From Eledone cirrhosa (Eukaryota): DNA of 33,627 nucleotides. A model generated the notes under the pieces. It ran no database searches. It saw only the letters and a program-made list of their open reading frames with translations, and was not told where the DNA came from. Location: NCBI GenBank assembly GCA_964016885.1, contig CAXHJY010001575.1:1-33627 (forward strand), written 5' to 3'. Below, one piece after another: positions 7,654 to 7,844 of the stretch. Positions within the stretch are counted from its first letter, which is position 1, and each line of letters starts with the position of its first letter. Made by a program: the position numbers and the translations under genes.

Positions 7654-7838
7654 TAATTAGAAAGTGAACAACACAAAATATAACTACTCCATTACCAAAG
7701 GTTTCTGGATCCCAGACAATAGTAATATACGTCTGGATCGGTCATCAGACAGAGATGATAACCAGACGAATATTACTATTGTCTGGGACCCAGAAACCTT
7801 TGGTAATGGAGTAGCTGTATTTTGTGTTGTTCACTTTC

Positions 7839-7844
<6 letters not shown>
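7654..7844. repeat. ~83-bp arm fold-back with a 25-nt spacer
   Basis: 7654-7736 pairs with 7762-7844 with about four mismatches. Confidence 0.95.
7687..7754 (-). ncRNA. Type-I hammerhead ribozyme motif (family 3)
   Basis: Minus strand: CTCTGT-CTGATGA-cc GATCCAGAC...GTCTGGGATC ca-GAAA-CC(TTT)GG-TA-ATGGAG. Stem I is 6 bp (2 GU), helix III is ACC/GGU, GUA site. The base of helix II is mismatched. Confidence 0.7.

What the first reader, a model, noticed from the sequence alone, without database searches (positions are those of the whole stretch)
7654..7844. Fold-back in which an upstream antisense arm masks the ribozyme (family 3)
Seen: the CTGATGA strand lies in the 25-nt spacer, and the 83-nt arm upstream on the ribozyme strand is the reverse complement of helix II-GAAA-helix III-tail. 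Inference: a read-through transcript would form dsRNA rather than an active ribozyme, sparing a host pre-mRNA. The geometry matches the inverted partial pLTR that Penelope-type fold-back or template-switch reverse transcription is known to leave.
Basis: partly seen in the sequence, partly recalled or inferred. Interest (0 to 1): 0.7.

Follow-up and report, generated by a model that had tools for sequence, protein, structure and literature searches.

The report
Dead Penelope-type insertion with masked ribozyme
This hairpin is the truncated tail end of a Penelope-type jumping gene pasted in back-to-back; the extra arm is predicted to silence its self-cutting RNA motif, but that looks like a likely accident of two-sided copying, since most relatives carry the motif uncovered.

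Summary
In detail: 83-nt arms (79 of 83 complementary) around a 25-nt spacer holding CUGAUGA on the minus strand. The element is larger than stated (7589-7844): the ribozyme-strand arm carries a further 61-nt tail. It is a 5'-truncated, head-to-head copy of the 3' end of a Penelope-like retroelement, likely Hydra clade; broken parent copies with direct or inverted pLTRs occur in the same genome. The arm masks the hammerhead-like fold in silico (about 70 kcal/mol), but masking is not the family's design. In an architecture-blind sample, 34 whole motifs are unmasked and 20 masked; window-like geometry is not enriched (7 observed, 9.0 expected). No host gene was found in the window. Simple fold-back cannot be the general origin: 42 of 48 close pairs join one tailed and one tail-less arm, in 22 of 42 neither arm lies within the other, and in 9 the tailed arm is essentially tail only. 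Two primings from two fixed RNA start sites fit best. Inverted truncated copies, one-sided tails and opposed hammerheads are in print; this scan noted the two-armed layout before on other DNA of this genome. Cleavage is untested and the core junction is non-canonical.

The parts
7589..7760 (-). Long arm: sense copy of the PLE 3' end, positions -12 to +159 relative to ribozyme C3; 5'-truncated at -12
   Evidence: junction mapping; 4 differences in 168 columns from the family majority
7589..7649 (-). 61-nt one-sided tail between the short end (+98) and the long end (+159); begins with a 7-bp hairpin (7649-7629); in L102 it runs on into the ORF start 118 nt further
7687..7754 (-). Type I hammerhead-like motif: helix I 7754-7749 with 7692-7687, helix II 7739-7731 with 7717-7708 (one bulge), GAAA 7705-7702, helix III 7702-7694, predicted cleavage after GUA at 7693
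   Evidence: no Rfam hit
7742..7748 (-). CUGAUGA core strand, lying in the hairpin loop
7737..7761 (.). 25-nt spacer (the part of the long arm not duplicated; junction at 7761/7762, one unaligned base)
7762..7844 (+). Short arm: second copy of the PLE 3' end, positions +12 to about +94/98, no tail; antisense and upstream on the ribozyme strand
7843..7910 (.). (TA)n run at the short end; likely insertion target
   Evidence: 58 of 65 short ends in the sample are followed by a TA run
7579..7588 (.). Short TA run beyond the long end; no target-site duplication can be read

Best explanation
This is a dead, 5'-truncated, head-to-head insertion of the 3' end (pLTR) of a Penelope-like retroelement, likely of the Hydra clade, likely written by two reverse-transcription events that started at two fixed RNA sites 61 nt apart from the two ends of a cut TA repeat and met in the middle; the upstream arm is predicted to mask the hammerhead-like motif in any read-through RNA, likely as a by-product. 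Shown: the anatomy, the parent, the two fixed outer ends, the variable inner junction, the one-tailed-one-tail-less rule. Inferred: two-sided priming and joining of the two cDNA ends. Predicted only: the RNA fold. Untested: transcription and cleavage.
For: Parent: L095 = inverted short-end pLTR copy + broken RT/EN frame + 3' UTR + motif + tail; L102, L110, L111, L116 have a direct tailed pLTR upstream of the ORF. Family copies show RWK, DKT, YRDD, CxCx5C, CxxC and CxH, the Hydra motifs in PMC8557442 section 11. An intact 719-aa sister ORF (73% nt identity) folds at pLDDT 93.6, best structural matches telomerase RTs. Sample = first 100 of 914 exact hits of an arm pattern, 88 loci. Of 48 close inverted pairs 42 are long+short, 2 long+long, 2 short+short, 2 unclassified; independent choice of ends gives at most half (44 of 48 with far pairs, P=1.5e-9). 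In 22 of 42 the short arm reaches further 5' than the long arm; in 9 of 42 the long arm starts at +90 or later; the two 5' ends are uncorrelated (rho -0.13, P=0.42) and equal within 3 nt in 4 of 42. Arms of one locus differ by 6.2%, of different loci 8.2%; rare variants are shared in 11 of 143 cases. Masking by-product: window-like pairs 7 observed vs 9.0+-2.1 permuted, unmasked pairs 8 vs 4.7+-1.6; 34 unmasked vs 20 masked whole motifs, core intact in 23 of 34 vs 10 of 20, P=0.25. In vitro a PLE protein cuts and extends both strands and starts at two internal sites that bound the tail (PMC11167929, parts 1-2 read).
Against: The window copy itself is nested (20 of 42 are), so fold-back is not excluded for it. 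The sample comes from contig C1 only, needs an exact 28-nt match, and singles were viewed over only 1.5-4 kb upstream, so distant inverted partners can be missed. No gene annotation: a depletion limited to sense-oriented intronic copies would be diluted and missed. Overlapping arms need the RNA to be copied twice or two RNAs; not distinguished. The short end could be a nuclease cut in an intermediate (as PMC8557442 suggests for tails) rather than a start site. Pfam gave no RT or GIY-YIG hit, the listed Foldseek rows show polymerases only, and no tree with known Hydra elements was built. The tail is 61 nt, not 30-40.
Confidence: 0.75

Rival explanations
1. Same element, but made by fold-back: one cDNA turns on itself or switches template and copies itself, and the second arm is trimmed at a fixed AT-rich site.
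For: Window copy and 20 of 42 pairs are nested; helix II is itself an inverted repeat that offers microhomology; several junctions hold short local duplications; common subfamily variants are shared by both arms in 27 of 48 cases.
Against: 22 of 42 pairs are not nested and 9 of 42 share next to no sequence between arms, which self-copying cannot give; rare variants seldom shared (11 of 143); the two 5' ends are uncorrelated.
Confidence: 0.12
2. The masked geometry is selected: unmasked sense copies cut host pre-mRNAs and are purged, so masked ones persist in introns.
For: The arm raises the cost of the ribozyme fold to about 70 kcal/mol. The motif covaries across sister families (helix I: 3 of 6 pairs changed on both sides), so it was under selection in source elements. 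Xenopus retrozymes are mildly under-represented in introns (10.64898/2026.07.22.740005, passages).
Against: No enrichment of masked geometry, unmasked copies are the majority and no more decayed. Even without the arm the window motif is 4.5-9 kcal/mol above the ensemble. Metazoan PLE hammerheads cleave weakly or not at all as monomers (PMC4209133) or need the PLE protein (PMC11167929). No host gene found in the window.
Confidence: 0.08
3. A DNA MITE or foldback transposon with long terminal inverted repeats.
For: Long inverted arms, TA-rich flanks, and the 40 best similarity hits all looked alike.
Against: That likeness is a ranking artefact (26 of 30 window-like there, against 8 of 48 close pairs in the blind sample). 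Arms are asymmetric, inner junctions vary, 36 of 88 loci have a single arm, and the sequence is the 3' end of an RT-encoding element.
Confidence: 0.02

Closest known systems
EN+ Penelope-like elements with an inverted 5'-truncated copy and one-sided tail (Craig et al. 2021, PMC8557442; passages, section 11, supplement search hits)
   Same: Partial tandems, inverted 5'-truncated copy at the 5' end, tail at one end only, hammerhead in the pLTR, (TA)n targets.
   Different: Tail 61 nt rather than 30-40; both arms here are under 200 nt, so the motif itself is split by the inversion.
Hydra clade of PLEs (PMC8557442, section 11 read)
   Same: RWK, DKT, CxCx5C linker, CxxC and CxH around the EN end, no cysteines inside the GIY-YIG-like core, (TA)n insertion, about 710-aa single ORF.
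   Different: Long microsatellite-rich 3' UTR makes the unit longer than the usual <3 kb; clade placement by tree not tested.
PAc Poseidon element of Anolis (Frangieh et al. 2024, PMC11167929; parts 1-2 of 4 read)
   Same: Two fixed 3' ends bounding a tail that is the start of the next unit; AT-rich targets; a hairpin in the tail.
   Different: In PAc the ORF starts inside the ribozyme; here about 220 nt downstream of the cleavage site. That paper saw no strand difference in start sites in vitro; here insertions take one of each.
PLE hammerheads (Cervera and de la Pena 2014, PMC4209133; parts 1-2 of 4 read)
   Same: Type I topology, long helix II, pLTR location; pairs of motifs 100-700 bp apart on opposite strands already reported.
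   Different: Closed 3-bp helix III with a non-palindromic loop; C.A and C.C mismatches instead of G10.1-C11.1.
L1 twin priming / dual priming (Meyer et al. 2010, PMC2837659; passages read)
   Same: Two cDNAs primed from both strands give head-to-head fragments joined internally.
   Different: L1's second start is variable and the fragments do not overlap; here the second start is fixed and arms usually overlap.

Membership tests
EN+ Penelope-like element | RT related to telomerase RT | tested here: met
   Intact sister ORF model's top Foldseek hits are TERTs; own-family broken frames are 73% nt identical and hold YRDD. Pfam gave no hit.
EN+ Penelope-like element | C-terminal GIY-YIG endonuclease | tested here: inconclusive
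   Motif-level likeness only; no Pfam hit, no nuclease among the listed Foldseek rows.
EN+ Penelope-like element | Direct or inverted pseudo-LTRs with 5' truncation | tested here: met
   L102, L110, L111, L116 direct; L095, L118, L120, L125 inverted.
EN+ Penelope-like element | Tail extension at one end only | tested here: met
   42 of 48 close pairs long+short; tail 61 nt.
EN+ Penelope-like element | Hammerhead motif in the pLTR | tested here: met
   Sense to the ORF, near the 3' end; variant junction, see below.
Hydra clade | RWK, DKT, CxCx5C, CxxC, CxH motifs; no CCHH | tested here: met
   Found in L118, L095, L102, L110 (L102 reads DKS) and L133-L135; absence of CCHH judged by eye; definition.
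Hydra clade | Insertion into (TA)n | tested here: met
   58 of 65 short ends and 28 of 61 long ends followed by a TA run.
Hydra clade | Phylogenetic placement with described Hydra families | not tested
   Reference Hydra proteins were not available as stored sequences.
Type I hammerhead ribozyme | CUGANGA, GAAA and UH core | tested here: met
   Intact in the window; intact in 44 of 69 arms; only N7 is polymorphic at subfamily level.
Type I hammerhead ribozyme | Three helices with covariation | tested here: met
   7 hand-picked sequences: 88.7% cells paired, 7 of 19 pairs changed on both sides, slid controls 31-49%; helix III invariant.
Type I hammerhead ribozyme | G10.1-C11.1 pair closing helix II; Rfam model match | tested here: not met
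   C.A and C.C mismatches at the base of helix II; no Rfam hit. Filed as hammerhead-like variant.
Type I hammerhead ribozyme | Self-cleavage | not testable with these tools
   Needs an in vitro assay.
MITE / foldback DNA transposon | Symmetric fixed termini and constant interior | tested here: not met
   Asymmetric arms, 28 distinct junctions in 30 loci, 36 of 88 loci single-armed.
MITE / foldback DNA transposon | Fixed target-site duplication | tested here: inconclusive
   Ends lie in microsatellites.
Non-LTR retrozyme | Non-coding tandem monomers each with a hammerhead | tested here: not met
   The motif is the 3' end of an ORF-bearing element; no short tandem monomers among the 88 loci.

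The most novel reading that the evidence does not exclude
Penelope-type insertion is a coordinated two-ended reaction: an enzyme pair primes both ends of a cut TA repeat from two fixed, non-equivalent sites flanking the 61-nt tail, exactly one site per end, and at the outer site it often stutters on an AC motif and adds (CA)n telomerase-fashion (26 of 61 long ends, 0 of 65 short ends). This would explain inverted pLTRs, one-sided tails, masked ribozymes and some new microsatellites with one mechanism, testable with the intact sister ORF.
Probability: 0.35. Interest if true: 0.6.

Novelty: new member of a known kind. Interest (0 to 1): 0.33.

Why it matters
As a locus it is ordinary transposon debris, and the proposed host-sparing role finds no support. 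Its value is mechanistic: how PLEs make inverted pLTRs and one-sided tails is called unresolved in PMC8557442, and the copy statistics (one tailed plus one tail-less arm; arms that share no sequence) discriminate between fold-back and two-sided priming in a protein-coding family, matching the two start sites seen in vitro. An intact sister ORF in the same genome offers a way to test it.

Tried and rejected
Rfam: nothing at gathering threshold in the window, no hammerhead at E<=10 in L116, L134. Whole-window repeat search was swamped by microsatellites. Apparent 3.1-kb tandem at C2:401.57 Mb is a host duplication, not a PLE tandem. L063 has no ORF. Pfam found nothing on 9 ORF fragments, the intact sister ORF, 7 homologues or 24 window frames; a profile search of PDB sequences found nothing significant. 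Single-sequence fold was unusable (pLDDT 33). Sequencing runs: no RNA holder listed; four laid runs of unrecorded kind only show family copies with other junctions. Ribozyme-cleaved RNA as template: no pile-up of 5' ends at the cleavage site (1 of 96 at +56, 2 at 54-58). The first 30 loci were rejected as a sample because they were ranked by likeness to the window. Paper searches for masking or twin priming in PLEs: 'Penelope + twin priming + inverted', 'hammerhead ribozyme, Penelope, intron, antisense orientation, pre-mRNA', 'Penelope, inverted, tail, template switch, microsatellite': listings only, none showed the masking idea or a count of arm types; older subscription papers by Arkhipova and Evgen'ev are not in the library. 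A look-up of earlier scan notes by sequence found nothing.

Full report
Observation. The inverted repeat is real: arms 7654-7736 and 7762-7844 pair at 79 of 83 positions around a 25-nt spacer. Rfam does not detect the motif.

What it belongs to. The window lies in a 3.0-Gb genome rich in microsatellites (an animal by inference). An arm pattern has 914 exact hits and a core pattern 195, with 0 for the reversed controls. Walking upstream led to long copies. L095 reads: inverted tail-less pLTR copy, broken RT/endonuclease frame, 3' UTR, motif, tail. L102 reads: tailed pLTR running on into the ORF start 118 nt later, ORF, tail-less pLTR. All own-family frames among the 30 loci are broken; a sister family at 73% identity has open frames of 704-719 aa in 3 loci. 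Family copies show RWK, DKT, YRDD, CxCx5C, CxxC and CxH, the features given for the Hydra clade (PMC8557442 section 11). The sister ORF has 1195 relatives at E<=1e-20 among 7995 scored; with 119 of them as alignment it folds at pLDDT 93.6 and its best structural matches are telomerase RTs. Pfam gave no hit and the endonuclease rests on motifs only.

The ribozyme motif. Core residues are the majority state throughout and intact in 44 of 69 arms; subfamily-level variants fall on N7, an unpaired base, the loop, the bulge and G-U/G-C or G-U/A-U switches. Across 7 hand-picked family and sister sequences 88.7% of cells pair and 7 of 19 pairs change on both sides, against 31-49% paired in slid controls; two further sister sequences were dropped because they aligned out of register. 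The G10.1-C11.1 pair stressed in PMC4209133 is replaced by two mismatches, so I file it as hammerhead-like. With the arm the ribozyme fold costs about 70 kcal/mol; without it 4.5-9.1 for the window copy, 2.6-4.7 for the family majority, 1.2 for a sister copy. Masking is thus predicted with confidence, but the unmasked window copy is itself a poor folder.

Is masking the design? The 30 loci ranked by likeness are biased (26 window-like, 28 distinct junctions). I therefore took the first 100 of the 914 arm hits (contig C1), which fall in 88 loci. After correction these are 49 close inverted pairs, 2 distant pairs, 1 ambiguous (L147/L148) and 36 single arms. Rows handled by hand: L055 moved from pairs to singles (partner was another family), L199 dropped as a duplicate of L198, L053's short arm set, L169 and L170 (distant) and L147/L148 left out, and L055, L192, L057, L067 dropped as segmental duplicates before the final count. 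Of 48 close pairs, 8 are window-like, 6 have the whole motif in both arms, 6 are partly masked, 9 unmasked and 19 hold no whole motif. With 25 independent single arms, 34 whole motifs are unmasked and 20 masked; cores are intact in 23 of 34 and 10 of 20 (P=0.25). Shuffling the arms' 5' ends among the 42 long+short pairs gives 9.0+-2.1 window-like pairs (7 seen) and 4.7+-1.6 unmasked (8 seen). None of 24 frames of 70 aa or more in the window hit Pfam; small exons or a very long intron are not excluded. Without annotation the intron-orientation test could not be run, and singles were seen over only 1.5-4 kb upstream.

How it was made. The outer ends take two fixed values, +98 (often +92 to +95) and +159. 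Of 48 close pairs 42 join one of each; free choice would give at most half (P=1.5e-9 on 44 of 48). In 22 of 42 the tail-less arm reaches further 5' than the tailed arm, and in 9 the tailed arm begins at +90 or later, so the arms share next to nothing and one cannot be a copy of the other. The two 5' ends are uncorrelated, and rare variants are shared by both arms in only 11 of 143 cases. This fits two cDNAs, primed at both ends of a cut TA run from two start sites and joined at their truncated ends (inference). A PLE protein does cut and extend both strands and start at two sites bounding the tail in vitro (PMC11167929); twin and dual priming are described for L1 (PMC2837659). Against: 20 of 42 pairs, the window included, are nested and would also fit fold-back; the short end could be a nuclease cut. 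On this geometry the antisense arm always lies upstream of the sense motif, so masking follows whenever one arm stops just past the core and the other inside helix II.

Comparison with print. The inverted 5'-truncated copy and one-sided tail are described in PMC8557442; opposed hammerheads 100-700 bp apart in PMC4209133. My searches (listings) showed neither the masking idea nor arm-type counts, but older subscription papers are not held. Earlier notes of this scan report two-armed insertions with fixed ends for other families in this genome; my reading was fixed before that look-up and they are not independent support.

Verdict. New member of a known kind; interest 0.33. The locus is PLE debris; masking is real on paper and likely incidental; the arm statistics bear on an open mechanistic question.

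Noticed in passing
family 3' ends, loci L046-L221: (CA)n of four or more units follows 26 of 61 long ends (a few are internal tail-like repeats) but 0 of 65 short ends; the element's own sequence continues with an AC motif there, suggesting slippage at priming.
   Followed up: partly
L133:1168-3324, L134:1213-3324, L135:1161-3317: Sister PLE family with intact 704-719-aa ORFs and a better-folding hammerhead-like motif (L134:893-972); possibly still active.
   Followed up: partly
junctions of 48 pairs: 5' ends pile up at -14 to -11 (11 of 96 arms), the outer edge of an extended helix I; none pile up at the cleavage site.
   Followed up: partly
family 3' UTR, position -66 (e.g. L063:5520-5545): Strong polypyrimidine tract plus CAG upstream of the motif, a candidate 3' splice site of a PLE intron.
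   Followed up: no
L095:2970-3193, L063:3470-3670: Two diverged internal copies of the tail sit in the 3' UTR just after the ORF.
   Followed up: no
window 7950-8070 (-) and about 14570-14700 (+): Another hammerhead-like family (core at 8036 minus, 14619 plus); the second sits in its own fold-back beside a TA run.
   Followed up: no
window 5259, 15145-15242, 5472-5572: Further CUGANGA..GAAA motifs (5259, 15192) and short palindromic elements of other families.
   Followed up: no
window about 6249-6352 (-): 76% match to an upstream 3' UTR piece of this family, on the far side of the tail; probably a separate fragment.
   Followed up: no
G000:C1 about 211.6-213.1 Mb and 248-249 Mb: Family copies repeated with their flanks by segmental duplication (L054/L055/L192, L056/L057/L067, L198/L199).
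   Followed up: yes
proteins P0001-P0120: Many homologues carry precomputed PF26215 or PF28514, yet 7 of them rescanned gave no hit in the Pfam copy held here.
   Followed up: partly
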